From Fidelibacterota bacterium UBA7301 (GTDB lineage Bacteria; Fidelibacterota; Marinisomatia; Marinisomatales; TCS55): DNA of 64,000 bases. Location of the stretch: assembly GCA_002471845.1 (NCBI GenBank), contig DKQT01000018.1:59807-123806 (forward strand), in the 5' to 3' direction. A program made the translations under genes and the position numbers. The notes under the pieces were generated by a model. It searched no databases, was not told the DNA's origin, and saw only the letters and a list, made by a program, of their open reading frames with translations. Below are positions 37,049 through 51,832 of the stretch, piece by piece. Every line of letters begins with the position of its first letter. The stretch's first letter is position 1.

Positions 37049-37919
37049 GATTTCACACCAGTCCCCGCATCCTCTCTCCAAATTTTTTACTAGTCTAATC
37101 CTGTTTGCAGGAATAGCTTGTAGCCCGGCTGTTGTTGTTTTAGAACATAAGCCGGAACTGGCAAAAAGTACTTACCGCTATTTCGCAGACCGCTCTGAAA
37201 AGCTGATTGCCATATCTCCAGAAAATCCTGAACGGTTGATCGACGGTTGTGAAACCCTGACGAAATATGCCTTCGGTTTCACCATGGAAGAAGCGGATCG
37301 TTTGGTGATGGAGGACTATAAAGGAGGGAAGTTACTACACGAAAAAGCCAACCAAACTTTTGCCAAGGCCGTTGCTTACGGTGATCGTGCACTAAGCATA
37401 AAATATCCCACTTATTATGACTGGCTTTTGGGGAGGGTGGTGGCTATGCCGGAATTCGATCCAGCTGATACACCTTATTTATTTTGGACTGCCGGTGCTT
37501 ATGGTGGTGCCATTAAATCCAGCGGAGGAAATCCAGAGTGGGTGATCCTGTTGCCAAGGGTTGGCCGTTTGCTTGAGGCGGGCCTGTCAGTGGATCCCAA
37601 TTGGAATAAGGGTGCTTTATACAGTGCCATGATATCCTATACCATTAGTCGGCATGACGCTCCAAAAAATAAAGCAGAAATTGCCCGGGATTATTTTGAA
37701 AAAGCGGTAAAATCATCCAATGGGCAGGATTTAGGTCCGTACGTAACAATGGCCGAAAGTGTCTCCATAGCAACCCAAAACAAGAACGAATTCACTAATT
37801 TGTTATATAAAGCATTAAATATTGATATAAAGGCTGACCCTGATTTACGTTTGACGAATCATATCAACCGAAATCGGGCTCAATGGCTCCTGGATAACAT
37901 TGACGAATTCTTTTATTAA
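37011..37919 (+). CDS. TRAP transporter TatT-component family TPR lipoprotein
   Basis: Lipobox LFAGIAC and a helical TPR-like body. The C-terminal [29 protein letters not shown] pattern matches the TatT family. The start is uncertain: the GTG at 37011 overlaps glyA by 38 nt. Confidence 0.6.
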
Positions 37920-37931
37920 AGCATAATTCCC

Positions 37932-38921: not shown

Positions 38922-38938
38922 AACGAATTTTTCTTCCC

Positions 38939-40732
38939 TTGGCTTATTTTAACATCAAAACCCTCGAGCAGTATTTTACCCTATTTGTTTTTATTGCTCT
39001 CGTTTTTCTTCCGGCCACGGAAGTAATTACTCGATTATTCGGCACCACTGGCGTGGTCGCTTCTTCGGTTCTGGTACAGCATTTTACTTTATGGATTGGT
39101 TTTGCGGGGGCTGTAATTGCCGCCCGCCGGAACAGGCTTTTATCCCTGACCACAAAACCGCTGTTCGAAACTGAAACCAACATTGATTGGTTCAAATTCA
39201 TCGGCAAGGTGACCACCATATTTATTGTATTGGCCCTGGCTTATGGCAGTTGGGGATTGGTCAAAATGGAAATGGATTATCCGGTGAAGATCGCACCGCT
39301 TCTGCCCAGATGGGGTGCACAAATGATTATGCCCGTGGGATTCATTTTTATCGCAATCCACATGTTTCTGAATGGTTATGACAGTTGGAAAAACAGGGGT
39401 ATCCTTTTTGGTTCTATTATCACAATCATCCTTTTGACTCGGTATGTGGAACCCCTACAGGAATCCCCGTTATTCATGTGGCTGGCAATCCTGCTTATCC
39501 TATTCTCGCTCATCAAGGGAGCGCCTATTTTTATCGGTTTGGGCGGTTTAGCAATCCTCTTTTTTTGGCGGGACTTTATTTCATTATCTGCAATTCCAGC
39601 GGAAGCCTATCGCATCGTTGTTTCGCCCACCTTACCGACAATTCCTTTATTTACTTTAGCAGGATACATATTAGCTGAGAGTAAGGCATCGGAACGGCTT
39701 GTCCGATTATTCAGGGCATTGTTTGGGTGGATACCGGGGGGCACGCCGGTGATACTCGTTCTTCTATGCGGATTTTTCACCGCTTTAACCGGCGGTTCAG
39801 GCGTAACCATCCTGGCCTTGGGCGGATTGCTGTTTCCATTGTTGATCCGGGAAGGATATTCAAAACATTTTTCATTGGGTCTCATCACCGTAGCCGGGTC
39901 ATTGGGATTATTATTTCCCCCGAGTTTACCTTTGATTATTTACGGTGTTACAGCTGCTGTTTCCGTGAAAGCCATATTTTTAGCGGGCATAATACCGGGG
40001 TTTATTCGGGTTGCCATGATTGGGGGATGGGCCGTTTGGCAGGGTAAGGTGCAGTCCGTGAAGCGCCACAGGTTAAACCTGGGTGATATTAAAACGTCCC
40101 TTTGGGATGCGAAGTGGGAAGCGATAATTCCCTTTTTTATTCTATTCGGGATATTCGGCGGATTCACCACTTTGGTAGAAACAGCCGCCATGACCGCCGT
40201 ATATGTCTTTATTGTCGAAGTATTTGTTTATAAGGACTTGAATTGGCGGGATATGAAAAAGATCATCCTGGATTGTTCAACACTTATAGGTGGTGTGCTG
40301 ATCATTCTCGGCGTTGCCATGGGGTTGACCAGCTATTTAGTGGATGCTCAAATTCCCATAAAACTTTTGGCCTGGGTCAAGACCGCCATTTCCTCAAAAA
40401 TAGTATTTCTTTTATTATTGAATCTTTTCCTTTTGGCAGTGGGCTGCATGATGGATATCTTTTCAGCCATCATTATTGTAGTGCCGTTAATCACACCATT
40501 GGGGGTCTATTTCGGAATTGATCCCGTTCATCTGGCGATCATTTTTATTGCCAACCTTGAATTGGGTTTTTTAACACCCCCCGTGGGGATGAATCTCTTT
40601 TTATCTGCCTATCGCTTTGAGGAGGATATGCCCACAATCTATAAATCCACTTTGCCGTTTTTTATGGTCATGCTAGTGAGTGTTTTGGTGATTACATATA
40701 TCCCGATTTTGTCCACTTGGGGGGGAAATTAA
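38939..40732 (+). CDS. TRAP transporter fused small/large permease (DctQ-DctM)
   Basis: 597 aa. About 4 N-terminal TM (DctQ-like) then about 12 TM (DctM-like) with FFTALTGGSGVTI and LELGFLTPPVGMNLF. Confidence 0.85.
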   Translation: MAYFNIKTLEQYFTLFVFIALVFLPATEVITRLFGTTGVVASSVLVQHFTLWIGFAGAVIAARRNRLLSLTTKPLFETETNIDWFKFIGKVTTIFIVLALAYGSWGLVKMEMDYPVKIAPLLPRWGAQMIMPVGFIFIAIHMFLNGYDSWKNRGILFGSIITIILLTRYVEPLQESPLFMWLAILLILFSLIKGAPIFIGLGGLAILFFWRDFISLSAIPAEAYRIVVSPTLPTIPLFTLAGYILAESKASERLVRLFRALFGWIPGGTPVILVLLCGFFTALTGGSGVTILALGGLLFPLLIREGYSKHFSLGLITVAGSLGLLFPPSLPLIIYGVTAAVSVKAIFLAGIIPGFIRVAMIGGWAVWQGKVQSVKRHRLNLGDIKTSLWDAKWEAIIPFFILFGIFGGFTTLVETAAMTAVYVFIVEVFVYKDLNWRDMKKIILDCSTLIGGVLIILGVAMGLTSYLVDAQIPIKLLAWVKTAISSKIVFLLLLNLFLLAVGCMMDIFSAIIIVVPLITPLGVYFGIDPVHLAIIFIANLELGFLTPPVGMNLFLSAYRFEEDMPTIYKSTLPFFMVMLVSVLVITYIPILSTWGGN

Positions 40733-40842
40733 TTATATATTACATTCTCTTGCCTCGTTTGAGGAGAACAGGGTAATTTCAAGCAAATTACAGGAGCGCC
40801 CATAAATAAACGCTAACGGTTGAATCGTTTCAAACATCATCG

Positions 40843-40862
40843 AAGGTTTTGAAAAACCTTTT
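40843..40862 (+). terminator. weak hairpin AAGGTTT-TGAA-AAACCTT + TT after TRAP permease gene
   Basis: 7-bp AT-rich stem read directly, followed by only a short T tract. Confidence 0.3.
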
Positions 40863-40898
40863 AAACATTATACCCCGAATCGGGGAAAGGACATTTCT

Positions 40899-42260
40899 AT
40901 GAAACGGATATATTCAATTGTGGCGGCGCTTCTGCTCCTGAGCAATCCGTCCCTCAATGCACAAAGTGAAGCAGGTGCGATATTTCTGCTCATATCGCCC
41001 GGTGCCCGTGCCGGCGGGATGGGTGAGGCACAGGTGGCTATCGCTAATGATGCCTATGCCAGTTATTGGAATCCTGCGGGATTGGCCTTCCAGGATGGTT
41101 CCGAAATTGCCTTCATGCACGTGAATTGGTTGCCGAATTTAGCCGATGACCTGTACTATGAATTCTTGGGATTCCGAAAACATTACCCGAACCTGGGGAC
41201 GCTGGGTGGTCATTTAATCTACCTCAACCTGGGAGAACAGGTGCGTATGGATGAATTCGCCCAATACCAGGGAAAATTCACTTCCTACATGATGGCAGCA
41301 GCCCTGTCCTACAGTTCTAAATTATCATCCACCTCTTCCTTTGGGATGAATGCCAAAATTTCTTACCAGCATTTGGTTGAAATTGCCACCGGTTCTGAGA
41401 AGGGAAAAGGTACTTCCATTGATTTTGGTTTTGATCTTGGATATATGAATAAAAGCTGGCTAACGCCCCGCATGGATTTGGGTGTAACCATGACCAATAT
41501 CGGGCCGAAAGTTTCTTTTATTGATCCGGACCAGGCCGATCCCCAACCGACAAATTTAACTTTTGGACTGGCTTATGAGGTGATTAGAAATGACTTTAAT
41601 AGTCTGAAGTTGGTCTATGATGTGGACAAACTGTTAGTGGCCTCATACCCGGATATGGATTGGGACGGGGACGGTATGATAGGCGGTTTTAACAAAAATG
41701 GAAAAGAAGGCACAAAAAATTCAGATTATAACCGCAATGGAAAACTGGAAGCAGCCCATAAGGATCCGATCTATAAAGCCATATTTACTTCCTGGGTGGA
41801 TGACTGGCTTCTCGGCGGCGATATTGACAGGGCCATACCTGGTGAGGTTACCGATAAAAAAATCGGCGGTTGGGAATGGGCCGGCGACGCTAACGGAAAT
41901 GAAAAGCTGGACCCTGAAGAAATGATAGACACCGCCAAGGAATACGGCGCTGTTTTCGGTGATGATAACTGGGGCATTTATAATGAGTGGGGCCAAAAAG
42001 AAGTGGGCTCGGCCAAGGATCGTACCATTCAGAATGAACTTGATAAGCTCGTTCACAACTTCGGTATGGAATACTGGTATTCATCCTATTTTGCCCTCCG
42101 CACGGGATACTATTTCGACAAAACGGGTAAGATTCAAAACCCTACCTTTGGTGTAGGATTGCGTTTTTCTAACTACGGATTTGATTTTGGATATACATCT
42201 GGAGCACCCGGTCATCCACTGACCAATACCATGCGGTTCTCCATGAACATTCAGTTATAG
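40899..42260 (+). CDS. porV: PorV/PorQ-family outer-membrane beta-barrel (T9SS shuttle-type) with large internal insertion
   Basis: Signal peptide, then the family-typical AGAIFLLISPGARAGGMGEAQVAIANDAYASYWNPAGLA. Ends in beta strands (MRFSMNIQL). A roughly 140-aa insertion carries DxDxDG-like loops. Confidence 0.75.
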   Translation: MKRIYSIVAALLLLSNPSLNAQSEAGAIFLLISPGARAGGMGEAQVAIANDAYASYWNPAGLAFQDGSEIAFMHVNWLPNLADDLYYEFLGFRKHYPNLGTLGGHLIYLNLGEQVRMDEFAQYQGKFTSYMMAAALSYSSKLSSTSSFGMNAKISYQHLVEIATGSEKGKGTSIDFGFDLGYMNKSWLTPRMDLGVTMTNIGPKVSFIDPDQADPQPTNLTFGLAYEVIRNDFNSLKLVYDVDKLLVASYPDMDWDGDGMIGGFNKNGKEGTKNSDYNRNGKLEAAHKDPIYKAIFTSWVDDWLLGGDIDRAIPGEVTDKKIGGWEWAGDANGNEKLDPEEMIDTAKEYGAVFGDDNWGIYNEWGQKEVGSAKDRTIQNELDKLVHNFGMEYWYSSYFALRTGYYFDKTGKIQNPTFGVGLRFSNYGFDFGYTSGAPGHPLTNTMRFSMNIQL

Positions 42261-42271
42261 ATAAAGGTTAA

Positions 42272-45085
42272 ATGAACCGCTTTCCCAAATGCAGATGGGC
42301 TTTGGCCTTTCTGCTTTTTGCATATTTACCCATGGATGCCCAAGTTCTCGGGGACTTAATAGTGGCTCTCATCCGCGTTTCATTTCCGCCGGGGGATTAT
42401 CCTGGATTTACAGGAAATGGCAATTACGAATATGTTCAAAATGAAGTTTGCGGCGACTATACTATTGATCCTGCTCCCCATGATAAAAACTATTTTCAAT
42501 CCCACCTAGAAGCGGTGAATAATTATTTCCGGAAGGTCTCTTATGGAAAATTCGGGATTGATTTACATAATTCCACCGTATTTCCCATGGAGAATGAGTC
42601 CAGTTATTTAATCAATAAACCCATGAACTATTACCATGAGATTAGTCACGATGAAGTTCATGAAAAACGGATTACTGAATTATTAAGGGATGCGGTTAAT
42701 AAAGCATTTGAAGTCGATAACATTGCTTTCAGTAAATATGACCTTGTTATTGTCGTCCATCCCGGTGTTGGACAGGATTTCAAATTACCATTTCTCGATC
42801 CGACGCCAGAAGATATTCCCTCAACATACGTGGATAATAATATGGTTAACACCCATTTAGGAGGACCGATCCAAGTTGGACGCATGTTCGTCCCCCATGG
42901 TATTATTGTTCCAGAAACGCAGAATCATCTTTTTTACGATGAATCAATATTTAGTCAATTATCTAGCCCTTGTGATGTACAATACAGCCTGACGGGTACC
43001 CTGACTATGATGATTGGCTTTGCCATAGGGTTGCCACCGCTTTGGGACTTAGAAACGGGTCAATCGGGAGTAGCCGTATTTAGTCTTATGGATCAGGGGT
43101 CGAATAATGGTCGCGGGATTATCCCTGCACCACCGGATGCATGGACGCGGATCTTTGCCGGTTGGGAGGAAGCCACAACATTTCAATATCCCGGGAAGAT
43201 TTCTATTCAAAGTGACATGCAAAACAGTATCGCCAAGGTCCCCATCAGCGCCGATGAATATTTTCTGATCGAAAACAGAAATAACTGGTTCCGGAATGGG
43301 GTCAGTATTGATTCGGCTCGCTATGCTGTTTGGGAAAAGGCGAATGAACATCCGCCGTTTATTAATGTAATGATTGATTCAGTTAGAGTAGGAAAGGATG
43401 AAAATGGCGTTATAACCGATATCCCCAATTATGATTTGGGTTTGCCCGCTTCGGGTCTTTTGATCTGGCATATTGATGAACAAAAAATACGAGGTGGGAT
43501 CAATTCATTTTTAATTAATGCTGACCGAAAACATCGTGGTATTGATCTTGAAGAAGCGGATGGTGCCCAGGATATTGGTTATGTATCCAATTTATTGACG
43601 GACCCTTCTTCCGGTTATTGGGGTGATATGTGGTTTACTGAGAATAAAGAATATTTCCGCGCCAATGCTGAGGGGAGTATGGATTTCTCCTCATTCACCT
43701 ATCCCAATACAAAATCCAATTCCGGCGCAAATTCAGGGATCCATATTAGCAATATCTCCAAAGCGGGGAAGATAATGACTTTTAATTTTTCATCCAGTTA
43801 TGATGTGGCCTATTTGAAGGATGAGAATAAATCAATTCTTTTTCAATGGGATGTGGATGGTGATGGTGATTTGGATTTTGTGGGCGAAGGGGATTCGCTT
43901 TGGTGGGGGGATGACCTTAATGAAGTGAATGCATTTAATAAAAATGATGGTGAAAATCTTCAAGTTTGCATTGTTCAAAATTCGAATCCTACAGCGATTG
44001 CCATAGCAAAACGAATGGGTACAGAACAAATTTTTGAGTGGTTTGAGTATGATCCATCTAATAAAAAATTGTTTCTGAAGTGGAAGAATAAAAAAGAGAC
44101 AGTCAACATTTTTAATCTTTTCAAAGCGGAAGCCGATGAGGAAAGAATCATCATCCAGGATGGCACCTCCTTCTACCAGGTTAAAAATGAAAACATTTCA
44201 TCTATCGATCCCAATGAGGAGTTATTTCCCTTAACCGTTTTTGATGGGAGTTGGACCTTTCAAAATGATCAGTATTTCTCTTATGAAAAATTCCCAATTC
44301 TGACAATTCGAGGGATAGAATCCCATTTTGAAAATGTGTCTTTATTAGATTTAGAAAATGACGGCCACGCTGAAATAGTCGTTGTTGACCATGAAGGGAA
44401 TATTCATGCCTTATCTGAAGGATCAATATATAAAAACGGATTTCCAATTTCAGCAATGGCGGTAGGACCTGTGTTAGGTATGGATCTATTGGATGACAGA
44501 AAAAGGGAACTCATATATCAGCATCAGGATGGGACGATTCGAATTTTAGATTTTGAAGGCGCGGAATTAGAAAGAATTGCCACATCTGGGTCATTAAAAG
44601 GATTGAGTAATTATAACGATAAACATGTGATACTGACAGGAAATAATCTCATCTCCTTCAAGGAAAATTGGGATGGGGCTGTTAATGAATGGGCTTATCC
44701 TAATGGAACAGCTGATCGGTCATCATTGTTACTAACTGGAGACTATACACCCCTAATCCCCTTTTTATTAGATCAAGAACAATCCTATGCCTATCCAAAT
44801 CCTTCTTATGGTGAGGATGTCATTTTTAGGATTCATGTTGGAGAAGCTAAAACTATTAATATTAATATTTTTGATTTGGCTGGTTTTCCTGTTGAGACAT
44901 TGAAAAAAGAAACAATTATCTCTCAGCCAACTGGTTCAAATTCTAGATTTTATATTTTGAGAAATTCCATTGAAATACCATGGTCGGTTTCAAATATTAA
45001 CTCAGGTGTATATTTCGCTCGTGTGGTGGTTAAGTTAGGAGGCCAGTCGGAAGAAAAGATCATCAAAGTAGGCGTTATTAAATAA
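42272..45085 (+). CDS. T9SS-sorted M6 (immune inhibitor A)-like protein with all zinc-site residues substituted; FG-GAP-like repeats; C-terminal sorting domain
   Basis: M6-like collinear blocks: LIVALIRVSFPP, YFRKVSYGKF, DLVIVVHPGVGQD, FSLMDQGSNNG, EYFLIENRNN, GLLIWHIDEQ, IDLEEADGAQD. The HExxHxxGxxD position reads MMIGFAIGLPP (43007-43039). FG-GAP-like WDVDGDGDLDF and LENDGHAEIVVVD are present. The last ~100 aa (44783-45082: YAYPNPS...SGVYFARVV...VGVIK) fit a Por_Secre_tail CTD. Confidence 0.7.
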   Translation: MNRFPKCRWALAFLLFAYLPMDAQVLGDLIVALIRVSFPPGDYPGFTGNGNYEYVQNEVCGDYTIDPAPHDKNYFQSHLEAVNNYFRKVSYGKFGIDLHNSTVFPMENESSYLINKPMNYYHEISHDEVHEKRITELLRDAVNKAFEVDNIAFSKYDLVIVVHPGVGQDFKLPFLDPTPEDIPSTYVDNNMVNTHLGGPIQVGRMFVPHGIIVPETQNHLFYDESIFSQLSSPCDVQYSLTGTLTMMIGFAIGLPPLWDLETGQSGVAVFSLMDQGSNNGRGIIPAPPDAWTRIFAGWEEATTFQYPGKISIQSDMQNSIAKVPISADEYFLIENRNNWFRNGVSIDSARYAVWEKANEHPPFINVMIDSVRVGKDENGVITDIPNYDLGLPASGLLIWHIDEQKIRGGINSFLINADRKHRGIDLEEADGAQDIGYVSNLLTDPSSGYWGDMWFTENKEYFRANAEGSMDFSSFTYPNTKSNSGANSGIHISNISKAGKIMTFNFSSSYDVAYLKDENKSILFQWDVDGDGDLDFVGEGDSLWWGDDLNEVNAFNKNDGENLQVCIVQNSNPTAIAIAKRMGTEQIFEWFEYDPSNKKLFLKWKNKKETVNIFNLFKAEADEERIIIQDGTSFYQVKNENISSIDPNEELFPLTVFDGSWTFQNDQYFSYEKFPILTIRGIESHFENVSLLDLENDGHAEIVVVDHEGNIHALSEGSIYKNGFPISAMAVGPVLGMDLLDDRKRELIYQHQDGTIRILDFEGAELERIATSGSLKGLSNYNDKHVILTGNNLISFKENWDGAVNEWAYPNGTADRSSLLLTGDYTPLIPFLLDQEQSYAYPNPSYGEDVIFRIHVGEAKTININIFDLAGFPVETLKKETIISQPTGSNSRFYILRNSIEIPWSVSNINSGVYFARVVVKLGGQSEEKIIKVGVIK

Positions 45086-48015
45086 TGAAACTTCGTTTTA
45101 TTTTATTAGTTTCTTTAGCTTTAGGACAAGTGAGTTATAACCATCCCGAACTGGATTGGAAAACCATAGAGACGGATCATTTTCGGATCCATTTTTATGG
45201 TGAAACCGAACAGTCCGCACTAGAGGGCGCATATGTGGCTGAACGGATCTATCCCTTTGTCACCAACCTCTACCTATACGAACCATTCGATAAGACCGAT
45301 ATTGTCTTCACTGATGTGGATGATATTTCCAACGGCGCCGCCTATTTTTACGATAATAAAATTGTCATCTGGACTAGTCCATTGGATTTTGAATTACGGG
45401 GTTCCCATCGTTGGCTCCAAAATGTGATCACCCATGAATTCACCCATATTGTCTCTATCCAGCGTGCCCAAAAGTTTGGTAAGTCCGTCCCCGGGGGATA
45501 CCTCCAATGGATAGGCTACGAAAAAGAGAAACGGCCAGATGTGCTCTATGGTTACCCTAATACGCTGGTGAGTTATCCCATCCCCGGAACAGTGGTGCCG
45601 CCGTGGCTGGCTGAAGGGGCGGCCCAGTTTATGTATCCCGGGGCGGATTGGGATAACTGGGATTCGGTCCGTGATATGATCTTGCGTGACAGGGTGTTAA
45701 ATAATAATATGCTTTCATGGCGGGAGATGAATACTTTTGGCAAAAGTGGCATCGGAAATGAATCGGTATATAATGCAGGCTTTGCATTAGCTCGATATTT
45801 GGCGGTGAAGTACGGTCCGGAATCCTTAGAAAAGATTATGGCATCTCTGAGTAAGCCCATGAATTATTCCATTAATCGCGCCTTCAAAGATGCTACGGGT
45901 AGAGAAGGAAAACTGGTTTATGATGAGTTTGAAACTGTTTTAAAAACGCGGTATGAAACCCTCACCGAATCGGTCATAGAAAATGAATTGAAAGGCAGAA
46001 TCATCCACGAAAGGGGAACGGTCAATTTTTTTCCTATCTGGAATGAAGACGGCACTAAAATTGCCTATATCTCAAACCAGGATCATGATTATTTCGGCAG
46101 CACCGATTTGTTTATCTATCATTTGGAATCAAAGATTTCTGAGAAGATAATTGACGGAGTTTATTCGAAACCGACTTGGAATGGGAAAAAAATATACTAT
46201 GCAAAGAAAGGTAAAATGCCCAATAAGGTGGGATCTAAGTTTTATGATCTTTATGAATATGACCTTTCGACTCAAAAAGAATTTCGGCTAACGAAGGATG
46301 CGCGGTCATTTTTTCCAGTTTATAGCGCAACGGATAGTGCCTTATTTTATCTTGCAACTCATGATGGAACCCAAAATATTTTCAAGATCGATCTTCAGAC
46401 CAAGTCCACTGAAAAACTGACTGATTTTAATAATCGAGAAATAATTGGTGGACTGAATTATGATGAAGAAAACGACCGCCTTATTTTTGACATGACCACC
46501 CACCATTTTCGAAATATCCATTATTTAAGTTTGGAAGATTCAATATCAGGTACGGTATTAAATAATGAACTGTGGGATGAGCGCCAAAGTGACCATGTAA
46601 AAAATGGAATGGTTTACAGTGACGATCGGTCCGGAATTTTTAATCTGTATTTCATCGGGAAAGATAAACAAGGCTATTTGACCAATGTTTCCGGTGGTGC
46701 CTTCATGGCGGATATCCATGAGAACGGAAAGGTGGTTTATGCCCTTTTTACAAATGGACAGTATAAGCTCGCTATTCTTGATTCTATTCAAATTGCGGAT
46801 GACGCCAATGTGGGGTATACGCCACTGTATTTCCAGCGGAATAAGAACTTGAGTCCGGCCATAACTGAAACGGTTCGTGCTAATCCAAAAAAATATAAAG
46901 ACCATTTTCCACCCATGTTTACCATGCCCCGCATGGCCATGGATTACGGCACCTTCAAACCAGGGATCTATTTTTATTCCTCAGAAATATTGGACAAAGT
47001 AACGGTGACCGGTGGTGCGTCTGTGAACCGATCCAAAGATTTGGACCTGTTCTTTTTATTTGAGTATAAACATTTATTCCCAACACTGTTTTTTGAAACA
47101 TTTTATTTAACACGGAATACCGAGGAGAGCACGGCCTATTCTGTTTATAAATTGGACAATAATCTTAAATTTCGTCTCATTGAATTTCAAGGCGGATTGC
47201 GGATTCCATTTTATGGTACACAGTTTGAATTGTATGGCAGTTGGTCCCAGTACCGGGCATCCATTAAAGAGCAGGTTGTGGGAAAACCCCAGCTTCGATC
47301 AGGTTTTGGATATGATTATTTTAAGGGGACGGAAGCGGGGATCAATTGGAATTTGAGGCAATTTAAACGACGTATCGATCAGGATATCAATCCGGTGGGA
47401 TATGAGGTGGATGTGCAGGTAGGGAAGGAATGGAATCAATTTATTGACGGGCTGGACTTGTCGGAGTCCGGAACATTAATTTCAAAATTTAATAAGCACA
47501 ATTTTGTTCAGTCTGATATCAGGGGAAAATATTTGTGGGAAATTCCAAAGACAAACAGATGGACCGTATCCATTGGAGGACAGGCGGGATGGATATCCAA
47601 TGCGTCTGCCGATTCATTTTTTCACTTTTTCGCCGGCGGTATGCCCGGGCTTAAAGGGTATCCATTCTATTCGTTGGAGGGAACAAACATGGTCATAGGA
47701 GAATTGGGATTACGAATTCCTATATTCAGGGAAAAGCATATTCCAATGGGTTGGTTCACATTGCAGCATTCCACTATTGGTTTGGTGGGACAAATGGGAG
47801 ACGCCTGGAATCGTGATCAATCCAAATTCAGTGCGAAATCCTCCGCAGGTATAGAATTTCGTTTGGCCGGCTATTCATTTTATAATTATCCCACTTCCAT
47901 TGGATTAGAGCTGCACCGAGGCTTAGCTACATTTAAAATGGATATTGGGGATGGTAAAACACTAAAATATGGTGGTGAAAACCGATTTTATTTTACAGTA
48001 TTGTTCGGATTTTGA
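45085..48015 (+). CDS. outer-membrane fusion protein: gluzincin (HExxH+E) domain + TolB/PD40-like beta-propeller + Omp85-type beta-barrel without POTRA
   Basis: Signal peptide; HEFTH at 45433-45447; WLAEGAAQF with the Glu at 45613-45615. PD40-like repeats (FFPIWNEDGTKIAYISNQD, FFPVYSATDSALFYLATHDGTQNIF). Omp85-like FFAGGMPGLKGY (VRGY-type loop-6 motif) and a terminal FYFTVLFGF. Confidence 0.65.
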   Translation: MKLRFILLVSLALGQVSYNHPELDWKTIETDHFRIHFYGETEQSALEGAYVAERIYPFVTNLYLYEPFDKTDIVFTDVDDISNGAAYFYDNKIVIWTSPLDFELRGSHRWLQNVITHEFTHIVSIQRAQKFGKSVPGGYLQWIGYEKEKRPDVLYGYPNTLVSYPIPGTVVPPWLAEGAAQFMYPGADWDNWDSVRDMILRDRVLNNNMLSWREMNTFGKSGIGNESVYNAGFALARYLAVKYGPESLEKIMASLSKPMNYSINRAFKDATGREGKLVYDEFETVLKTRYETLTESVIENELKGRIIHERGTVNFFPIWNEDGTKIAYISNQDHDYFGSTDLFIYHLESKISEKIIDGVYSKPTWNGKKIYYAKKGKMPNKVGSKFYDLYEYDLSTQKEFRLTKDARSFFPVYSATDSALFYLATHDGTQNIFKIDLQTKSTEKLTDFNNREIIGGLNYDEENDRLIFDMTTHHFRNIHYLSLEDSISGTVLNNELWDERQSDHVKNGMVYSDDRSGIFNLYFIGKDKQGYLTNVSGGAFMADIHENGKVVYALFTNGQYKLAILDSIQIADDANVGYTPLYFQRNKNLSPAITETVRANPKKYKDHFPPMFTMPRMAMDYGTFKPGIYFYSSEILDKVTVTGGASVNRSKDLDLFFLFEYKHLFPTLFFETFYLTRNTEESTAYSVYKLDNNLKFRLIEFQGGLRIPFYGTQFELYGSWSQYRASIKEQVVGKPQLRSGFGYDYFKGTEAGINWNLRQFKRRIDQDINPVGYEVDVQVGKEWNQFIDGLDLSESGTLISKFNKHNFVQSDIRGKYLWEIPKTNRWTVSIGGQAGWISNASADSFFHFFAGGMPGLKGYPFYSLEGTNMVIGELGLRIPIFREKHIPMGWFTLQHSTIGLVGQMGDAWNRDQSKFSAKSSAGIEFRLAGYSFYNYPTSIGLELHRGLATFKMDIGDGKTLKYGGENRFYFTVLFGF

Positions 48016-48016
48016 T

Positions 48017-48844
48017 ATGAAAAGATTTGCACCAGCAATTTTCATATTATCGGTTGGGTTTTCCCAATTCAACCACTACGATTTAGCCAACTATCCTGTT
48101 CAGCGGGATACGATTGGTCTGCCTGGTCCAGCCAAGGCTATGTTTAAATCATTCATCGTTCCGGGGTGGGGACAGATTCAAAATAAGGATTCATGGTGGA
48201 AGCCCCTTTTATTTGCCGGCGTTGAAACAGTGGGTTTGTTATCATCTTTTAATTATGGCAGGCGTGCTGAAAATATACGTCGGGATTTTGAATCCTATGG
48301 TGATGAACATTGGGCCTTGGCGCGATGGTATTCAAATACACAAAGAATATTTCCTAACCAATGGCGGGAAATACTGATCGGCACTCATAAATTGGAACTG
48401 AAGATCGGCAGTAATTATTACCATACGAACCAATTGGGTGAACTGGTTAAGCAATATGCATGGTCCGAAATCACTGTAATCCGGGATCGGGATTTTTATG
48501 AAAATATTGGTAAGTATGATCAGTTTGTGGGGGGCTGGGATGATGATTATGACGATCCATTTGATGCGGCAGGGAATTGGTTTACGGTGAAAAAAGGTGA
48601 TGTGGAATCTATTATTTTAACCAAACGAAAAGATTATTACCGCGATCTCCGCCACGAAAGTAATTTATTGAAACATTATTCCCGTTATGCCGTAACGGTG
48701 GTGATGTTTAACCATCTTACCAGTGGATTGGAAGCAGGGTGGTCGGCAAAGAAAAAGGTAAAAAATTCCTCCGAATTCAGCTTGAATTACAATCCAATGA
48801 ATAAGTGGGGAGTTGGGGGTGTACGAATCACCTTTACGTGGTAA
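48017..48844 (+). CDS. DUF5683-like membrane-associated protein
   Basis: Signal-like N-terminus, then the FIVPGWGQIQNKDSWWKPLLFAG motif typical of the family (recalled). Confidence 0.55.
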   Translation: MKRFAPAIFILSVGFSQFNHYDLANYPVQRDTIGLPGPAKAMFKSFIVPGWGQIQNKDSWWKPLLFAGVETVGLLSSFNYGRRAENIRRDFESYGDEHWALARWYSNTQRIFPNQWREILIGTHKLELKIGSNYYHTNQLGELVKQYAWSEITVIRDRDFYENIGKYDQFVGGWDDDYDDPFDAAGNWFTVKKGDVESIILTKRKDYYRDLRHESNLLKHYSRYAVTVVMFNHLTSGLEAGWSAKKKVKNSSEFSLNYNPMNKWGVGGVRITFTW

Positions 48845-48881
48845 ATTCCCCGCTCAAAAATTGATAGAAAGAAGCCAGTTA

Positions 48882-49646
48882 ATGCGTGTAGCAGCAGCTA
48901 TTTTATTGTGTACGGCATTGATAATATCAGGATGTGCCGGAAATAAATCCATTCAAGATATTGACTATAATGCAGAATTTGAAAAGGGAAAAACTGCATT
49001 AGCGAAAAAGAAATATACTAAAGCACAATCCCTGTTTAATAATGTGGTCATTGGCGCCTCCCATACAGAACTGGGAGATGATGCGCTGTTTTTTCTGGGG
49101 GAATCATATTATTTTTCCAAGGAGTATTTATTGGCGATTGCGGAATATGATCGCTTGATCCGACGTATGCCCTTTAGTCCATTTGTTGAGCAGTCACGAT
49201 ACCGAATATGTGAGGCTTACGTCCTTTTATCCCCCAAATATTTCCAGGACCAGACCTATTCTGAAAAAGCGCTGGGGAAACTCCAGGAATTCATAGATGA
49301 TTATCCCAATTCCAAGCACCAGGAAAAAATGCAGGCTGATATTAAAAAATTGAGAAATAAATTATCCCATAAATCATACGAATCTGCTGTTCTTTACATA
49401 AAGATGGAAGAATATAAAGCAGCCCTATTGGCTTTGCAGCAAGTGACGGACTTATATTATGATACAGATTATATTGACCAGGCCCATTTAAAAAAAATTG
49501 AATGCTATATTCATCGCGGTGAGATGGATAAGGCGCAGGAATATTTTGATGCGAAACGAAAACATATTGAAAACCTAAAGTTGGCTGATTTTGTTGAAAA
49601 ATGGTTTGACCAGGGTCGAGTTTTAAGCCAGATTGAAGTCGAATGA
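48882..49646 (+). CDS. bamD: outer membrane protein assembly factor BamD (YfiO)
   Basis: Lipobox LIISGC and BamD-type TPRs (FEKGKTALAKKKYTKAQSLF, ALFFLGESYYFSKEYLLAIAEYDRLI, YPNSKH). Confidence 0.8.
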   Translation: MRVAAAILLCTALIISGCAGNKSIQDIDYNAEFEKGKTALAKKKYTKAQSLFNNVVIGASHTELGDDALFFLGESYYFSKEYLLAIAEYDRLIRRMPFSPFVEQSRYRICEAYVLLSPKYFQDQTYSEKALGKLQEFIDDYPNSKHQEKMQADIKKLRNKLSHKSYESAVLYIKMEEYKAALLALQQVTDLYYDTDYIDQAHLKKIECYIHRGEMDKAQEYFDAKRKHIENLKLADFVEKWFDQGRVLSQIEVE

Positions 49647-50224
49647 AAACCTGTCTTTTCGGCGGCACCTTTGATCCACCACATTTTGGCCACTTAATCG
49701 TTGCCCAGACGATATTTGAGGCGGAACATTTTGATAAAATCGTTTTTATCCCTGCCCATATTGCGCCCCATAAAAAAGATAGAAAATTGTCTTCCGTGGA
49801 TCTCCGTCTTGAAATGCTTCAAATCGCCACCAAGGATAATCCGAATTTTGAAATATCCGATATTGAAATCAAGCGTGGTGGTATTTCTTATTCCCTGGAT
49901 ACAATCCGCGCCTACAAGAAAGAGTCTGGTTTGTCCAAAAATGATTTATATTATTTAATCGGAAGTGATTCCCTGAAACTGTTTTATTCCTGGCAAAAGC
50001 CTGAATCCATTTTAAAGGAATGTCAATTAATTGTGGCCATTCGCCCCGGTTTTCGTCCCAGCGATATTTCAAACTGGATTTTAGCCAAAGTGCAGTTTGC
50101 CAATATACCCCGGATAGAAATTTCTTCAACCCAGATACGTAACCGTTGGGTGGAGGATAAAACAATCCGGTATATGGTGACCCAGCCCGTGTGGGAATTC
50201 ATCAACAAACACAACTTGTATTAA
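49643..50224 (+). CDS. nadD: nicotinate-nucleotide adenylyltransferase
   Basis: GGTFDPPHFGH and ISSTQIR motifs. ATGA overlap with bamD. Confidence 0.9.
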   Translation: MKTCLFGGTFDPPHFGHLIVAQTIFEAEHFDKIVFIPAHIAPHKKDRKLSSVDLRLEMLQIATKDNPNFEISDIEIKRGGISYSLDTIRAYKKESGLSKNDLYYLIGSDSLKLFYSWQKPESILKECQLIVAIRPGFRPSDISNWILAKVQFANIPRIEISSTQIRNRWVEDKTIRYMVTQPVWEFINKHNLY

Positions 50225-50228
50225 TGCC

Positions 50229-51149
50229 ATGCTCATGAGCCTTTTGTTTTTAGCCGCTGGTTCCATCATGCTGTATTACGGCGCAGAATGGATCGTGAAA
50301 GGCGGTGTCAGTATTTCCCGTCGTTTGGGAATTTCCACTTTGGTTATTGGATTAACGGTCGTTGCATTTGGTACATCTCTACCGGAATTAGTTGTCAGTA
50401 TCATAGCTGCTTTGGAGGGGAGTTCGTCCATAGCTATTGGCAATGTTGTGGGTTCAAATATTGCCAACGTAGGATTGGTTCTGGGGTTGAGTGCACTCAT
50501 TTTTCCCATCTCGGTCCATTTTGGGTATTTAAAGCGGGATTTATTCATATACATGGGTGTGTGTGCAATATTTGTTCTTTTTGCCTTTGACGGTCGTTTA
50601 AGCCGCTTTGAAGGGGCAGTATTATTTATCAGTCTCATTTTTTATGTACTTTTATGTATTAAAAACCCCCAAGGTGAAGAACCTTTACCGGATGAAGGCG
50701 GGGAAGAATCAATCGGAAAATTGGTATTATATATTATTGCGGGAATTATTATGTTAGCGTTCGGTGCTGATTTATTCGTGGATGGTGCCATTTTCCTGGC
50801 ACGCTTTTTGGACGTGCCTGAAGTTGTGATCGGCATGAGTGTGGTTGCCTTTGGAACCTCTCTCCCTGAATTGGCTACTTCGGCTATAGCAGCCTTCCGT
50901 AAGGAAAGCGCTATTTCTGTCGGTAACATTATCGGTTCGAATATTTTTAATATTTTGTCCGTATTGGGCTTAGCATCAATAATACAACCACTGGATTCTC
51001 CCAAAACAATTATGGGTTTAGAAGTTCCTTTTATGATTGGTTACGGGCTGGCGATGATTTTTATTGCCAAAATTCACCAACCGATTCATCGTATTGTCTC
51101 CGCCATTTTATTAACAGGCTATTTTGTTTTTCTTTATCTCCTATTTTAA
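50229..51149 (+). CDS. calcium/sodium antiporter (CaCA / YrbG family)
   Basis: Two alpha-repeats, GTSLPELVVS and GTSLPELATS, in a 10-TM-type protein. Confidence 0.85.
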   Translation: MLMSLLFLAAGSIMLYYGAEWIVKGGVSISRRLGISTLVIGLTVVAFGTSLPELVVSIIAALEGSSSIAIGNVVGSNIANVGLVLGLSALIFPISVHFGYLKRDLFIYMGVCAIFVLFAFDGRLSRFEGAVLFISLIFYVLLCIKNPQGEEPLPDEGGEESIGKLVLYIIAGIIMLAFGADLFVDGAIFLARFLDVPEVVIGMSVVAFGTSLPELATSAIAAFRKESAISVGNIIGSNIFNILSVLGLASIIQPLDSPKTIMGLEVPFMIGYGLAMIFIAKIHQPIHRIVSAILLTGYFVFLYLLF

Positions 51150-51178
51150 CCTGGAAAAAATCAGATTAGATTAATCCC

Positions 51179-51832
51179 ATGATTCGACTGGATAATGTAT
51201 CTTATTCCTACGCAAAAGGTGGCGGTGTTTCCAATGTGAATCTGAATATCGCCGATGATGAATATGCATTTCTCATTGGCCCCACTGGTTCCGGCAAGAC
51301 AACACTCCTGCGGCTGGTCTATATGGATTTGATGCCCCAAGTCGGAAAAGTGGTGGTGGATAAATTCAATTCCGATAAGATAAAACCACGCAAAATCCCA
51401 TACTTGCGGAGAAAAATCGGTATGGTGTTTCAGGATTATCATTTATTGAATGACCGCAACCTGTTTGAAAATACAGCCTTGCCTTTGCATGTGGTCGGGT
51501 GTGATCAGGAAGAAATTGTTGACCGTGTCATTGAATCATTGGAAGAAGTAGGTCTGGATGGAAAAGAAGAGCATTTTCCGGAAGAATTATCCGGCGGGGA
51601 GCAACAGCGCGCCTGTGTGGCCCGGGCCCTTGTTAAAGATCCGGATATAATTTTAGCCGACGAGCCTACGGGTAATCTTGATCCTGTGACATCTTTCGAA
51701 TTGATAAAATTGTTGGAAGAAATTAACCGGGAAGGCACCACCATTCTGATGGCATCCCATAATTATAATTTGATTAAAGGTCGGGGGCACCGCATCATTG
51801 AAATCCAGAATGGAAGTGTAAGGCAATCCTGA
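51179..51832 (+). CDS. ftsE: cell division ATP-binding protein FtsE
   Basis: Walker A GPTGSGKTT, signature LSGGEQQR, Walker B ILADEPTGNLD. Followed by ftsX. Confidence 0.9.
   Translation: MIRLDNVSYSYAKGGGVSNVNLNIADDEYAFLIGPTGSGKTTLLRLVYMDLMPQVGKVVVDKFNSDKIKPRKIPYLRRKIGMVFQDYHLLNDRNLFENTALPLHVVGCDQEEIVDRVIESLEEVGLDGKEEHFPEELSGGEQQRACVARALVKDPDIILADEPTGNLDPVTSFELIKLLEEINREGTTILMASHNYNLIKGRGHRIIEIQNGSVRQS

What the first reader, a model, noticed from the sequence alone, without database searches (positions are those of the whole stretch)
40899..49646. Non-canonical T9SS / outer-membrane module: PorV, a dead M6 cargo, a protease-propeller-Omp85 fusion, DUF5683 and BamD in one tight block
Five same-strand genes sit with gaps of -1 to 36 nt:
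- a PorV/PorQ-type barrel
- a 937-aa protein with an M6-like layout, no zinc site and a T9SS C-terminal sorting domain
- a 976-aa protein overlapping it by 1 nt (TAATG), with an intact HEFTH...WLAEG gluzincin domain, PD40-like propeller and Omp85-type barrel
- a DUF5683-like protein
- BamD

In Porphyromonas and Flavobacterium the gene next to porV is porU, a C25-type sortase that itself keeps a CTD. Here that position holds a CTD-bearing inactive metalloprotease scaffold followed by a membrane-embedded, apparently active one.

My inference is that this is an alternative cargo-processing or attachment module, or a dedicated surface-protein quality-control module, in an FCB lineage outside Bacteroidota. 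I do not know of a description of this arrangement.
Basis: partly seen in the sequence, partly recalled or inferred. Interest (0 to 1): 0.72.

Follow-up and report, generated by a model that had tools for sequence, protein, structure and literature searches.

The report
Secretion-linked outer-membrane protease gene cluster
In marine Marinimicrobia and related bacteria, a conserved gene cluster places the type IX secretion shuttle PorV next to a catalytically dead protease and a live protease fused to an outer-membrane barrel, which looks like an undescribed accessory part of that secretion system working alongside the known sortase PorU, not replacing it.

Summary
The five genes and their domain calls are real. 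They are PorV; a type IX secretion (T9SS) C-terminal-domain (CTD) protein with an M6-like domain lacking HExxH ("M6i"); a 976-aa zinc peptidase + TolB-like propeller + Omp85 barrel fusion ("MAprop"); DUF5683; and BamD. The organism is a Marinimicrobia (Fidelibacterota) MAG.

Synteny inside that phylum proves little, because unrelated flanking genes (TRAP, nadD, ftsE) are syntenic too. Outside it the evidence is strong.
- In 80 diverse metagenomic loci, PorV sits directly upstream of the M6-like gene in 60/64 evaluable cases.
- MAprop sits directly downstream in 51/64.
- DUF5683 follows MAprop in 33/33.
- A bona fide PorU sortase sits directly upstream of PorV in 29/54.

So the module extends the porU-porV locus and is not a general substitute for PorU. 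BamD follows only in Marinimicrobia-type loci; elsewhere that position holds a second DUF5683 paralogue.

New result: M6 site loss and MAprop presence are tightly coupled. Where HExxH is lost, MAprop is present (51 of 52). Where HExxH is kept, MAprop is absent (12 of 12). MAprop keeps HExxH in 146/146 loci. This suggests a pseudoenzyme/enzyme pair. No published description was found. Whether Marinimicrobia have PorU elsewhere could not be tested.

The parts
40899..42260 (+). porV: PorV-family outer-membrane barrel, 453 aa, with a signal peptide
   Evidence: NF033709 scores 246.8 bits (cutoff 90). The PorV equivalog scores 189.9 bits, below its 250 cutoff. PorQ and PorV2 score only 60 bits each. 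Homologues at the same position lie next to PorU in L085 and L088, and the L086 homologue passes the PorV equivalog cutoff.
41652..42050 (+). Lineage-specific insertion of about 105-130 aa in PorV, Asp/Gly-rich (DMDWDGDG...)
   Evidence: Window PorV aa 1-247 and 384-451 align to the 350-365-aa PorVs of L085-L087. The stretch between them is extra. It is shared with Fidelibacter PorV, which is 451 aa.
42272..45085 (+). M6i: an M6-like pseudo-metalloprotease with a middle FG-GAP-like region and a T9SS C-terminal sorting domain, 937 aa
   Evidence: NF052323 scores 392 bits (below the 600 cutoff). The M6 domain TIGR03296 scores 60 bits (below the 110.8 cutoff). The homologue at the same position in L086 scores 629 bits, above the 600 cutoff. 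See alignment A3.
43007..43021 (+). Degenerate zinc site: MMIGF where active M6 relatives have HEFGH
   Evidence: All 60 Marinimicrobia loci that cover this column lack HExxH. Of the metagenomic loci, 64 lack it and 15 keep it.
44792..45067 (+). T9SS type A C-terminal sorting domain (CTD) of M6i, aa 841-932
   Evidence: TIGR04183 scores 24.9 bits (cutoff 23). Pfam Por_Secre_tail scores 17 bits, below its cutoff. The C-terminal motifs are conserved in alignment A3.
45085..48015 (+). MAprop: signal peptide, MA-clan zinc peptidase domain, TolB-like beta-propeller and POTRA-less Omp85-type barrel, 976 aa
   Evidence: AlphaFold2 model with pLDDT 80 and pTM 0.76. The representatives search gave 3261 hits at E<=1e-3 and 334 at E<=1e-30.
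45142..45984 (+). MA (gluzincin-type) peptidase domain, aa about 20-300. HEFTH lies at 45433-45447 and WLAEG at 45604-45618.
   Evidence: Peptidase_MA_2 scores 33.1 bits on the domain alone (cutoff 32.4), and 14 of 14 diverse relatives match it. HExxH is kept in 94 of 94 full-length representatives and in 146 of 146 loci. The downstream EG is kept in 144 of 144.
45985..46794 (+). TolB/PD40-like beta-propeller, aa about 301-570
   Evidence: Foldseek top hits are TolB structures at E about 5e-9. The TolB model TIGR02800 matches weakly. PD40 is significant in relatives.
46912..48012 (+). Omp85-type barrel of about 16 strands, aa about 610-976. It ends ...FTVLFGF. An L6-like loop motif GGMPGLKGY lies at 47635-47661.
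   Evidence: Foldseek with the barrel-only model gives TamA at 4e-7, then B. thetaiotaomicron, F. johnsoniae, E. coli and D. radiodurans BamA, Toc75, Sam50 and FhaC. Pfam Omp85 scores 45.4 bits (cutoff 24) in the full-length homologue P0233. It is not detected by Pfam on the window sequence itself.
48017..48844 (+). DUF5683-family protein, 275 aa from the ATG at 48017, with a signal peptide, an SxxxPGWGQ motif and two hydrophobic segments
   Evidence: PF18935 scores 37.9 bits (cutoff 26.7). Homologues follow MAprop in 33 of 33 evaluable metagenomic loci. See alignment A5.
48882..49646 (+). bamD (lipoprotein with lipobox IISGC). It is a neighbour and not part of the cross-phylum module.
   Evidence: TIGR03302 scores 122 bits (cutoff 81). 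BamD follows DUF5683 only in Marinimicrobia-type loci: L001-L080, L082, L092, L134, L161, L162 and L167. Other lineages have a second DUF5683 paralogue there.

Best explanation
**What it is.** Genes 1-4 (porV, M6i, MAprop, DUF5683) are the Marinimicrobia version of a gene cluster conserved across several non-Bacteroidota FCB lineages. Its full form is porU - porV - M6-like CTD protein - MA-peptidase/propeller/Omp85 protein - DUF5683 - DUF5683. It is an accessory module of the type IX secretion 'attachment/sorting' locus. It works alongside the PorU sortase and is not a general substitute for it. bamD is a housekeeping neighbour found only in this phylum.

**Proposed mechanism (inferred).**
- M6i is exported by the T9SS through its CTD. 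Like PorU on PorV and PorZ on PorQ, it probably stays on the cell surface held by the PorV barrel encoded just upstream.
- M6i has lost its zinc site and acts as a binding scaffold.
- The proteolytic step that an active M6 enzyme performs in sister lineages is carried out here by the Omp85-anchored zinc peptidase encoded next to it.
- The propeller of that peptidase would gate or bind substrates.
- The DUF5683 membrane protein(s) are obligate partners.
- The likely substrates are T9SS cargo proteins or their sorting domains.

**Shown:** gene content, domain folds, catalytic-site states, cross-lineage gene order and PorU co-location.

**Inferred:** physical association, the side of the membrane on which the peptidase acts, and the substrates.
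For: **Domain identities:**

**Cross-lineage order with different flanking genes**
- L085 (Ca. Electryonea) and L088 carry PorU-PorV-M6i-MAprop-DUF5683-DUF5683.
- L086 (KSB1-like), L087 and L090 carry the same block without an adjacent PorU.

**80 metagenomic loci found through the M6-like protein**
- PorV is directly upstream in 60/64.
- PorU is directly upstream of PorV in 29/54.
- MAprop is directly downstream in 51/64.
- DUF5683 follows MAprop in 33/33.

**Complementarity of the two catalytic sites**
- HExxH lost and MAprop present: 51.
- HExxH lost and MAprop absent: 1. This is L150, which is interrupted directly after M6i by a DUF4160-like gene, a transposase-like gene and a CDC48-like ATPase gene.
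- HExxH kept and MAprop present: 0.
- HExxH kept and MAprop absent: 12. Eight of these are PorV-linked and are followed directly by DUF5683 genes.
- Naive Fisher p = 4e-12.

**Other support**
- The two HExxH-keeping proteins checked (L111, L160) match NF052323 and carry CTDs. L111 lies beside a PorU that passes the cutoff.
- MAprop keeps HExxH in 146/146 loci and the downstream EG in 144/144. M6i lacks HExxH in 60/60 Marinimicrobia loci.
- It is established knowledge that PorU and PorZ are CTD-retaining surface proteins held by PorV and PorQ. The role of PorZ is summarised in PMC8545088.
Against: - No physical or expression data exist for any component.
- By the Omp85 rule, N-terminal domains are periplasmic, whereas a CTD-exported M6 domain is extracellular. 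A direct hand-over of the same reaction needs either surface exposure of the MA domain (as in type Vd PlpD) or a different point of action. I could not inspect domain orientation in the model.
- The 80 loci are not independent samples. On a crude NJ tree the HExxH-keeping proteins sit on one side, implying only one or two transitions. The Fisher p value therefore overstates the evidence.
- MAprop homologues also occur alone in four loci (L083, L084, L089, L091), so the family is not strictly T9SS-bound.
- The taxonomy of most metagenomic loci is unknown.
- In this genome, PorU, SprA and PorKLMN were not located. The 64-kb window has none.
Confidence: 0.55

Rival explanations
1. In lineages such as Marinimicrobia the M6i + MAprop pair replaces the C25 sortase PorU as the cargo-processing and attachment enzyme next to PorV.
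For: - In the window and in all 80 Marinimicrobia loci the gene upstream of porV is a TRAP permease, not porU.
- Fidelibacter (L082) and Marinimicrobia-type metagenomic loci also lack an adjacent PorU.
- No C25 protein is encoded in the 64-kb window.
- Two protein searches seeded with PorU returned nothing labelled Marinimicrobia.
Against: - The same block lies directly downstream of porU-porV in L085, L088 and 29 of 54 evaluable metagenomic loci. The module therefore coexists with PorU where both can be seen.
- Non-adjacency of PorU also occurs in lineages such as L086, L087 and L090, and it says nothing about absence from the genome.
- The PorU searches were too insensitive to count as negative evidence. 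They did not return any hit labelled as Bacteroidota either.
- A zinc hydrolase is not an obvious substitute for a cysteine transpeptidase.
Confidence: 0.12
2. MAprop, DUF5683 and BamD form an outer-membrane-protein assembly or quality-control unit, a BepA-like protease fused to a BamA/BamB-like scaffold. PorV and M6i merely lie next to it.
For: - MAprop has an Omp85 barrel.
- Heinz & Lithgow 2014 likened WD40-Omp85 proteins to a BamA-BamB fusion (PMC4104836).
- bamD follows in this phylum.
- A BamG-like barrel (130 bits, below cutoff) and TPR proteins lie 6-8 kb upstream.
- BepA is a precedent for a BAM-associated zinc protease (established knowledge).
Against: - BamD adjacency is confined to Marinimicrobia-type loci, where unrelated genes (TRAP, nadD, Ca/Na antiporter, ftsE) are equally syntenic.
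- In other lineages the slot is a second DUF5683 gene.
- DUF5683 genes follow the M6 protein directly even where MAprop is absent (8 loci), which ties DUF5683 to the PorV/M6 side.
- No BAM genes flank MAprop where it occurs alone.
- The coupling of MAprop to the state of the M6 active site is not explained by this view.
Confidence: 0.13
3. MAprop is a self-exporting, surface-displayed nutritional protease of the type Vd/PlpD kind. It is co-transcribed with, but mechanistically independent of, the T9SS components.
For: - It has an Omp85 barrel with a non-POTRA N-terminal passenger-like region, which is an architecture analogy with PlpD (PMC4104836).
- About 45 residues link the propeller to the first barrel strand.
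- The family also occurs outside the block.
- T9SS cargo commonly includes secreted hydrolases such as peptidases (PMC11205867 abstract).
Against: - There is no POTRA domain, which PlpD-type proteins have.
- Near-obligate adjacency to M6i and DUF5683, and complementarity with the M6 active site, argue for a shared function and against mere co-regulation.
Confidence: 0.1
4. There is no functional link. The adjacency is inherited synteny in compact genomes.
For: - Within Marinimicrobia the whole nine-gene stretch, including unrelated housekeeping genes, is syntenic in 46 of 80 loci.
- Promoter and terminator scans are at chance level.
Against: The porV-M6i-MAprop-DUF5683 order persists in other lineages, including Ca. 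Electryonea and a KSB1-like contig, and in dozens of metagenomic contigs whose M6-like proteins are only 27-69% identical to the KSB1-like query. The five non-Marinimicrobia genome loci that carry the block have unrelated flanking genes.
Confidence: 0.05

Closest known systems
T9SS attachment complex PorU-PorV-PorQ-PorZ of Porphyromonas and Flavobacterium
   Same: - It has a PorV-family barrel, and in many relatives the PorU C25 sortase sits directly upstream.
- A large CTD-bearing protein with a beta-propeller-like region is encoded beside a PorV-family barrel, as PorU is with PorV and PorZ with PorQ.
- The CTDs of the M6-like proteins of L086 and L111 give faint hits to the PorZ CTD region.
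   Different: - The CTD protein is an M6-type pseudo-protease, not a C25 enzyme or a PorZ-type double propeller.
- Neither PorZ nor PorQ reached its NCBIfam cutoff for any product of the locus that was scanned.
- Two component types have no described T9SS counterpart: an Omp85-barrel zinc peptidase and DUF5683 proteins.
- The gene order is porV then the CTD protein.
NCBIfam NF052323 'T9SS-dependent M6-like inactivated metalloprotease' (neighbouring accessions are NF052324 PorU2 and NF052325 PorV2)
   Same: Gene 2 is a diverged member. The window protein scores 392 bits and the KSB1-like counterpart scores 629 bits, above the 600 cutoff. Both have an M6-like layout, a lost HExxH and a T9SS type A sorting domain.
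   Different: - The window protein is below the family cutoff.
- The name covers one protein only. No curated model matched MAprop, and I found no publication.
- The partner barrel here scores as PorV (190-265 bits), not as PorV2 (57-66 bits).
- Some relatives at the same position keep HExxH.
'WD40-Omp85' subfamily of Heinz & Lithgow 2014 (PMC4104836)
   Same: It has an Omp85 barrel preceded by a TolB-like beta-propeller instead of POTRA domains.
   Different: That paper, as read, described the propeller only, compared it with a BamA-BamB fusion, and left the function open. Here an N-terminal MA zinc peptidase domain is part of every member examined, and the gene is linked to porU, porV and M6i.
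BepA (M48 zinc protease with TPR domain, associated with BAM)
   Same: It is an envelope zinc metalloprotease joined to a protein-interaction domain and working at an Omp85 machine. This is a functional analogy.
   Different: The peptidase family differs (Peptidase_MA_2, not M48). The peptidase is fused to its own Omp85 barrel. The genomic link is to T9SS genes and not to BAM genes outside Marinimicrobia.
PlpD / type Vd secretion (Omp85 barrel with an N-terminal enzyme passenger)
   Same: An enzyme domain lies N-terminal to an Omp85-type barrel in one polypeptide.
   Different: PlpD has a POTRA domain and a patatin passenger. MAprop has no POTRA, and its topology is unknown.
M6 peptidases (immune inhibitor A type; TIGR03296 domain)
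   Same: M6i aligns to the M6 domain model at 60 bits (aa 251-337), and HExxH-keeping relatives score 74-97 bits. All are below the 110.8-bit cutoff.
   Different: The window protein has lost both His residues and the Glu of HExxH. It also carries a T9SS CTD and an FG-GAP-like middle region.

Membership tests
PorV (T9SS outer-membrane shuttle; NF033710 equivalog / NF033709 family) | Score above the curated HMM cutoff | tested here: inconclusive
   The family model NF033709 scores 246.8 bits against a cutoff of 90, so it is met. The equivalog NF033710 scores 189.9 bits against a cutoff of 250, so it is not met. The counterpart at the same position in L086 scores 264.6 bits, above 250. The window protein has an insertion of about 105-130 aa that breaks the match into two stretches.
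PorV (T9SS outer-membrane shuttle) | Closer to PorV than to the PorQ or PorV2 paralogues | tested here: met
   PorV scores 189.9 bits, PorQ 60.2 and PorV2 60.5.
PorV (T9SS outer-membrane shuttle) | Genomic pairing with the PorU sortase | tested here: not met
   In the window the upstream gene is a TRAP permease. The pairing is met for counterparts at the same position in L085, L088 and 29 of 54 evaluable metagenomic loci.
NF052323 T9SS-dependent M6-like inactivated metalloprotease | Score above the curated cutoff (600 bits) | tested here: not met
   The window protein scores 392.4 bits, covering model positions 40-559 of 1043. L086 scores 629.4 bits. The window protein is a diverged relative.
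NF052323 T9SS-dependent M6-like inactivated metalloprotease | M6-like domain with the HExxH zinc site lost | tested here: met
   MMIGF occupies the HEFGH column. All 60 Marinimicrobia loci covering that column lack HExxH.
NF052323 T9SS-dependent M6-like inactivated metalloprotease | T9SS type A C-terminal sorting domain | tested here: met
   TIGR04183 scores 24.9 bits against a cutoff of 23, at aa 841-932. This is marginal, but the C-terminal motifs are conserved in alignment A3.
Omp85 superfamily | 16-stranded C-terminal barrel with an Omp85 fold | tested here: met
   The AlphaFold2 models show about 16 strands. Foldseek with the barrel-only model gives Omp85 members for the top 18 hits (TamA, BamA, Toc75), then Sam50 and FhaC within the top 30, at E from 4e-7 to 2e-4 and TM about 0.45-0.57.
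Omp85 superfamily | Sequence match to Pfam PF01103 or PF19143 | tested here: inconclusive
   There is no hit on the window sequence. One of 11 close relatives hits Omp85_2 at E=0.007. The full-length homologue P0233 scores 45.4 bits against a cutoff of 24.
Omp85 superfamily | Conserved loop-6 (V/I)RG(F/Y)-type motif | tested here: met
   GGMPGLKGY lies at aa 851-859, in the long loop between barrel strands that holds helix 844-850. The pattern GGxxx[LIVM][KRQ]G[YF] is present in most block-type representatives. F. johnsoniae BamA has LRGY at this position (PMC12611786).
Omp85 superfamily (BamA/TamA/TpsB types) | Periplasmic POTRA domain(s) | tested here: not met
   There is no POTRA hit. The model has a peptidase domain and a propeller instead. 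This places the protein with the non-POTRA 'WD40-Omp85' group of PMC4104836.
MA-clan gluzincin metallopeptidase (Pfam Peptidase_MA_2) | HExxH plus a downstream Glu ligand, and a domain HMM match | tested here: met
   HEFTH and WLAEG are present. The domain alone scores 33.1 bits against a cutoff of 32.4, and 14 of 14 diverse relatives match. The motifs are invariant in 146/146 and 144/144 loci. Catalytic activity itself is not testable here.
BamD | TIGR03302 above cutoff, TPR lipoprotein | tested here: met
   It scores 122.4 bits against a cutoff of 81.4. The lipobox IISGC follows the ATG at 48882.
DUF5683 (PF18935) | Pfam score above the gathering cutoff | tested here: met
   It scores 37.9 bits against a cutoff of 26.7, over the N-terminal 44 residues of the domain only. 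Further motifs are conserved across lineages in alignment A5.
Complete T9SS in this genome (SprA/Sov, PorK/L/M/N, PorU) | Presence of the core genes | not testable with these tools
   None is encoded in the 64-kb window. The PorU protein searches were insensitive.

The most novel reading that the evidence does not exclude
[quoted passage not shown] In it an Omp85-family barrel carrying an active zinc peptidase, two DUF5683 membrane proteins and a PorV-tethered M6 (pseudo)protease act together with PorU to mature, release or quality-control secreted cargo. The catalytic role has moved during evolution from the secreted M6 subunit to the barrel-anchored subunit. This would be a new job for an Omp85 protein and a new class of T9SS components.
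Probability: 0.35. Interest if true: 0.85.

Novelty: new variant of a known kind. Interest (0 to 1): 0.7.

Why it matters
Almost all mechanistic knowledge of type IX secretion comes from Bacteroidota. How cargo is processed in the other FCB phyla, including the abundant ocean lineage Marinimicrobia, is essentially unstudied.

This cluster nominates three uncharacterised protein families as candidate T9SS-associated components: the M6-like CTD protein, the MA-peptidase/propeller/Omp85 fusion and DUF5683. It gives a testable rule, namely a dead M6 always with the Omp85 peptidase and a live M6 never with it. It also points to a cultured organism, Fidelibacter multiformis, that carries the block.

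It would extend the known repertoire of Omp85 proteins to a protease-bearing, POTRA-less form with a defined genomic partner set.

Tried and rejected
- **Sequence searches against solved structures.** I tried MAprop, M6i, a barrel profile, a DUF5683 profile and an MA-domain profile. They gave nothing useful beyond weak TolB hits.
- **Pfam on the barrels of close relatives.** No Omp85 call. Structure and a distant homologue were needed.
- **Search for PorU in Marinimicrobia.** The Electryonea PorU and a PorU profile returned only 29-31 proteins, with none labelled Bacteroidota. These searches are uninformative and are not negative evidence.
- **Taxonomic naming of unlabelled contigs through housekeeping neighbours.** No names were returned.
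- **Promoter and terminator scans.** Chance level.
- **Literature searches.** I searched for M6-like/T9SS, Marinimicrobia + T9SS, Omp85 + PorU/PorV, and DUF5683. No description of the cluster was found. The Fidelibacter description paper does not mention secretion.
- **Within-phylum synteny as evidence of function.** Rejected, because the flanking TRAP, nadD, antiporter and ftsE genes are equally syntenic.
- **'BamF' as a lead for DUF5683.** Rejected. The hits were the string 'BAMFj' in PMC12611786.
- **Not done.** Both structure-prediction jobs went to MAprop, so M6i, PorV and DUF5683 were not modelled. Domain orientation in the MAprop model could not be inspected.

Full report
**Observation**

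The window carries five consecutive + strand ORFs at 40899-49646.

- **Gene 1** is a PorV/PorQ-family barrel. NF033709 scores 246.8 bits (cutoff 90). It is much closer to PorV (189.9 bits) than to PorQ or PorV2 (60 bits each), although it is below the PorV equivalog cutoff of 250.
- **Gene 2** matches NCBIfam NF052323, 'T9SS-dependent M6-like inactivated metalloprotease', at 392 bits (cutoff 600). It also carries a T9SS type A sorting domain at 24.9 bits (cutoff 23). Where active relatives have HEFGH, it reads MMIGF.
- **Gene 3** overlaps gene 2 by one base (TAATG) and has HEFTH and WLAEG.
- **Gene 4** is DUF5683.
- **Gene 5** is BamD.

I make three small corrections.

- DUF5683 most likely starts at 48017 and BamD at 48882, which give a signal peptide and a lipobox respectively.
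- The tight spacing continues into nadD and a Ca/Na antiporter, so spacing alone does not define a five-gene unit.
- The surrounding 64 kb encodes housekeeping and cell-envelope genes (mreBC, PBP2, rodA, a BamG-like barrel, ftsEX, dnaJ/grpE) and contains no other T9SS gene.

**The 976-aa protein ('MAprop')**

An AlphaFold2 model built on 34 sequences (pLDDT 80, pTM 0.76) shows three parts: an N-terminal helical domain, a beta-propeller at about 300-570, and a C-terminal barrel of about 16 strands.

- Foldseek with the whole chain is dominated by TolB.
- A barrel-only model gives TamA, then BamA from B. thetaiotaomicron, F. johnsoniae, E. coli and D. radiodurans, then Toc75, Sam50 and FhaC.
- The long loop carries GGMPGLKGY, which resembles the Omp85 loop-6 motif. 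F. johnsoniae BamA has LRGY there (PMC12611786).
- The protein ends in ...FGF.
- Pfam does not see Omp85 in this sequence or in its close relatives. It does in a full-length homologue, at 45.4 bits against a cutoff of 24.
- The N-terminal domain alone passes Peptidase_MA_2, and 14 of 14 diverse relatives match it.
- HExxH is kept in 94 of 94 full-length cluster representatives and in 146 of 146 loci. The downstream EG is kept in 144 of 144.
- There is no POTRA domain.

Heinz & Lithgow (PMC4104836) already named an uncharacterised 'WD40-Omp85' subfamily with a TolB-like propeller. In the passages I read, the peptidase domain and the genomic context are not described.

**Organism and within-phylum synteny**

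The protein is 100% identical to one from a Candidatus Marinimicrobia MAG. The 80 best genomic relatives are all Marinimicrobia/Fidelibacterota, apart from one record labelled Winogradskyella.

In those loci the five genes occur in order in 52 cases, and no locus that reaches far enough lacks one. However, the flanking TRAP permease, nadD, antiporter and ftsE genes are syntenic as well, with all nine genes in order in 46 loci. Within-phylum synteny is therefore weak evidence for a functional unit.

**Outside the phylum**

Neighbourhoods of distant MAprop relatives are more informative.

- In Ca. Electryonea clarkiae (L085) and an 'FCB group' contig (L088) the order is C25 peptidase - PorV - CTD protein - MAprop - DUF5683 - a second DUF5683-like gene.
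- The L085 C25 protein is a bona fide PorU at 694 bits (cutoff 420).
- A KSB1-like contig (L086), L087 and L090 carry PorV-M6i-MAprop-DUF5683-DUF5683 with unrelated flanks.
- In L086, PorV and M6i pass their NCBIfam equivalog cutoffs.
- A Latescibacterota contig has M6i and MAprop only.
- Four distant homologues stand alone.
- Fidelibacter multiformis, the cultured member of the phylum, has the window's arrangement including BamD.

**Larger sample**

A metagenome scan seeded with the KSB1-like M6i returned 80 loci at 27-69% identity. The tabulation gave these counts.

| Feature | Count |
|---|---|
| PorV directly upstream of the M6-like gene | 60/64 |
| PorU directly upstream of PorV | 29/54 |
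| MAprop directly downstream of the M6-like gene | 51/64 |
| DUF5683 directly after M6, no MAprop | 8/64 |
| DUF5683 after MAprop | 33/33 |
| Next gene a second DUF5683 | 16/33 |
| Next gene BamD (Marinimicrobia-type loci) | 4/33 |

The conserved unit is therefore (porU)-porV-M6-like-MAprop-DUF5683(-DUF5683). The barrel in it behaves as the canonical PorV. BamD is a lineage-specific neighbour.

**Coupling of the two proteases**

At the zinc-site column, 64 loci lack HExxH and 15 keep HEFGH-type motifs. The cross-tabulation with MAprop is as follows.

| M6-like zinc site | MAprop present | MAprop absent |
|---|---|---|
| HExxH lost | 51 | 1 |
| HExxH kept | 0 | 12 |

- The single exception (L150) is interrupted immediately after M6i by a DUF4160-like gene, a transposase-like gene and a CDC48-type ATPase gene.
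- Eight of the twelve HExxH-keeping loci are PorV-linked and run straight into the DUF5683 genes.
- The two HExxH-keeping proteins checked (L111, L160) match NF052323 and carry CTDs, and L111 lies beside a PorU that passes the cutoff.
- A naive Fisher test gives p = 4e-12. The loci are related, though, and a crude NJ tree suggests only one or two transitions. I read the pattern as strong but not statistically independent.

**Interpretation**

The most economical reading is that this is an accessory module of the T9SS attachment/sorting locus in non-Bacteroidota FCB bacteria.

By analogy with PorU on PorV and PorZ on PorQ (established knowledge; PorZ role in PMC8545088), the CTD-bearing M6-like protein is probably held at the surface by the adjacent PorV. 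Where M6 is catalytically dead, an Omp85-anchored zinc peptidase is encoded next to it and presumably supplies the proteolytic step. DUF5683 proteins always accompany them.

Three things remain inferred: physical association, substrates, and the side of the membrane on which the MA domain acts. Omp85 precedent says periplasm, whereas the hand-over logic suggests the surface.

'An alternative to PorU' is not supported in general, because PorU is part of the same cluster in about half of the loci where this can be judged. For Marinimicrobia specifically it remains untested. PorU is not adjacent in any Marinimicrobia-type locus, and my two PorU searches were too insensitive to count.

'A surface-protein quality-control module' remains compatible with the data.

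A BAM-related reading (a BepA-like protease on a BamA/BamB-like scaffold beside BamD) is weakened on three counts. BamD adjacency is confined to one phylum. DUF5683 tracks the PorV/M6 side even without MAprop. The M6/MAprop coupling has no explanation under that view.

**Novelty**

NCBIfam already names the M6i family, and its accession neighbours are PorU2 and PorV2 models. Heinz & Lithgow named WD40-Omp85. I found no paper that describes the cluster, the peptidase domain of the Omp85 protein, its link to porU/porV, the DUF5683 association, or the catalytic-site complementarity.

I rate it a new variant of a known kind of system, of clear interest to T9SS and Omp85 specialists.

Noticed in passing
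window 41652-42050 (PorV aa about 252-384): The Marinimicrobia/Fidelibacter PorV is about 450 aa, against 350-365 aa elsewhere. The difference is an Asp/Gly-rich insertion (DMDWDGDG..., GDANGNEKLD) that looks like calcium-binding loops. In another lineage (L111) the PorV beside an HExxH-keeping M6 is 924 aa, with an even larger insertion.
   Followed up: partly
window 31988-35725: A BamG-like FadL-type barrel lies at 33207-34463 (NF053685, 130 bits, below the 250 cutoff). It is flanked by an unannotated 410-aa protein and a 430-aa TPR protein with a weak BepA-TPR match. At the corresponding upstream positions Fidelibacter (L082) has an unannotated 401-aa gene followed by a 424-aa TPR gene, whose homology to the window genes was not tested. 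These may be Bacteroidota-type BAM components.
   Followed up: no
L084 10001-13878: A stand-alone MAprop homologue is followed 3 nt later by a glutaminyl cyclase gene (Glu_cyclase_2). From my own knowledge, glutaminyl cyclase modifies the N-termini of T9SS cargo in P. gingivalis. This may be coincidence.
   Followed up: no
L150 13100-17263: This is the only locus with a dead M6i but no MAprop. A DUF4160-like gene, an IS200/REP-type transposase-like gene and a CDC48-like AAA ATPase gene sit directly after M6i. That suggests an insertion or rearrangement.
   Followed up: partly
L111 14930-19448: Downstream of the two DUF5683 genes in an 'active M6' locus lie a 318-aa NHL/beta-propeller protein and a 1179-aa protein with a faint local match to SprA/Sov (25.6 bits, far below cutoff).
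   Followed up: no
window 40873-40885: A perfect GC-rich hairpin (CCCCGAATCGGGG) lies 14 nt upstream of the porV start codon, inside the 166-nt intergenic region. The scan lists it only as a minus-strand terminator-like site.
   Followed up: no
window 19532-22407: A 537-aa protein with Reg_prop propeller repeats is followed, with an overlap, by a 435-aa GWxTD-domain protein. Both are uncharacterised envelope-type proteins.
   Followed up: no
L080 (CAXRJK010000135.1): A contig binned as 'Winogradskyella sp.' carries the Marinimicrobia-type MAprop-DUF5683-BamD-nadD-antiporter-ftsE order at 46-60% identity to the window. It is probably a mis-binned Marinimicrobia contig.
   Followed up: no
window 35729-52701 and L001-L080: The gene order from the TRAP permease to ftsE (TRAP-porV-M6i-MAprop-DUF5683-bamD-nadD-antiporter-ftsE) is kept across Marinimicrobia down to about 50% protein identity. 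Only the antiporter is occasionally inverted.
   Followed up: yes
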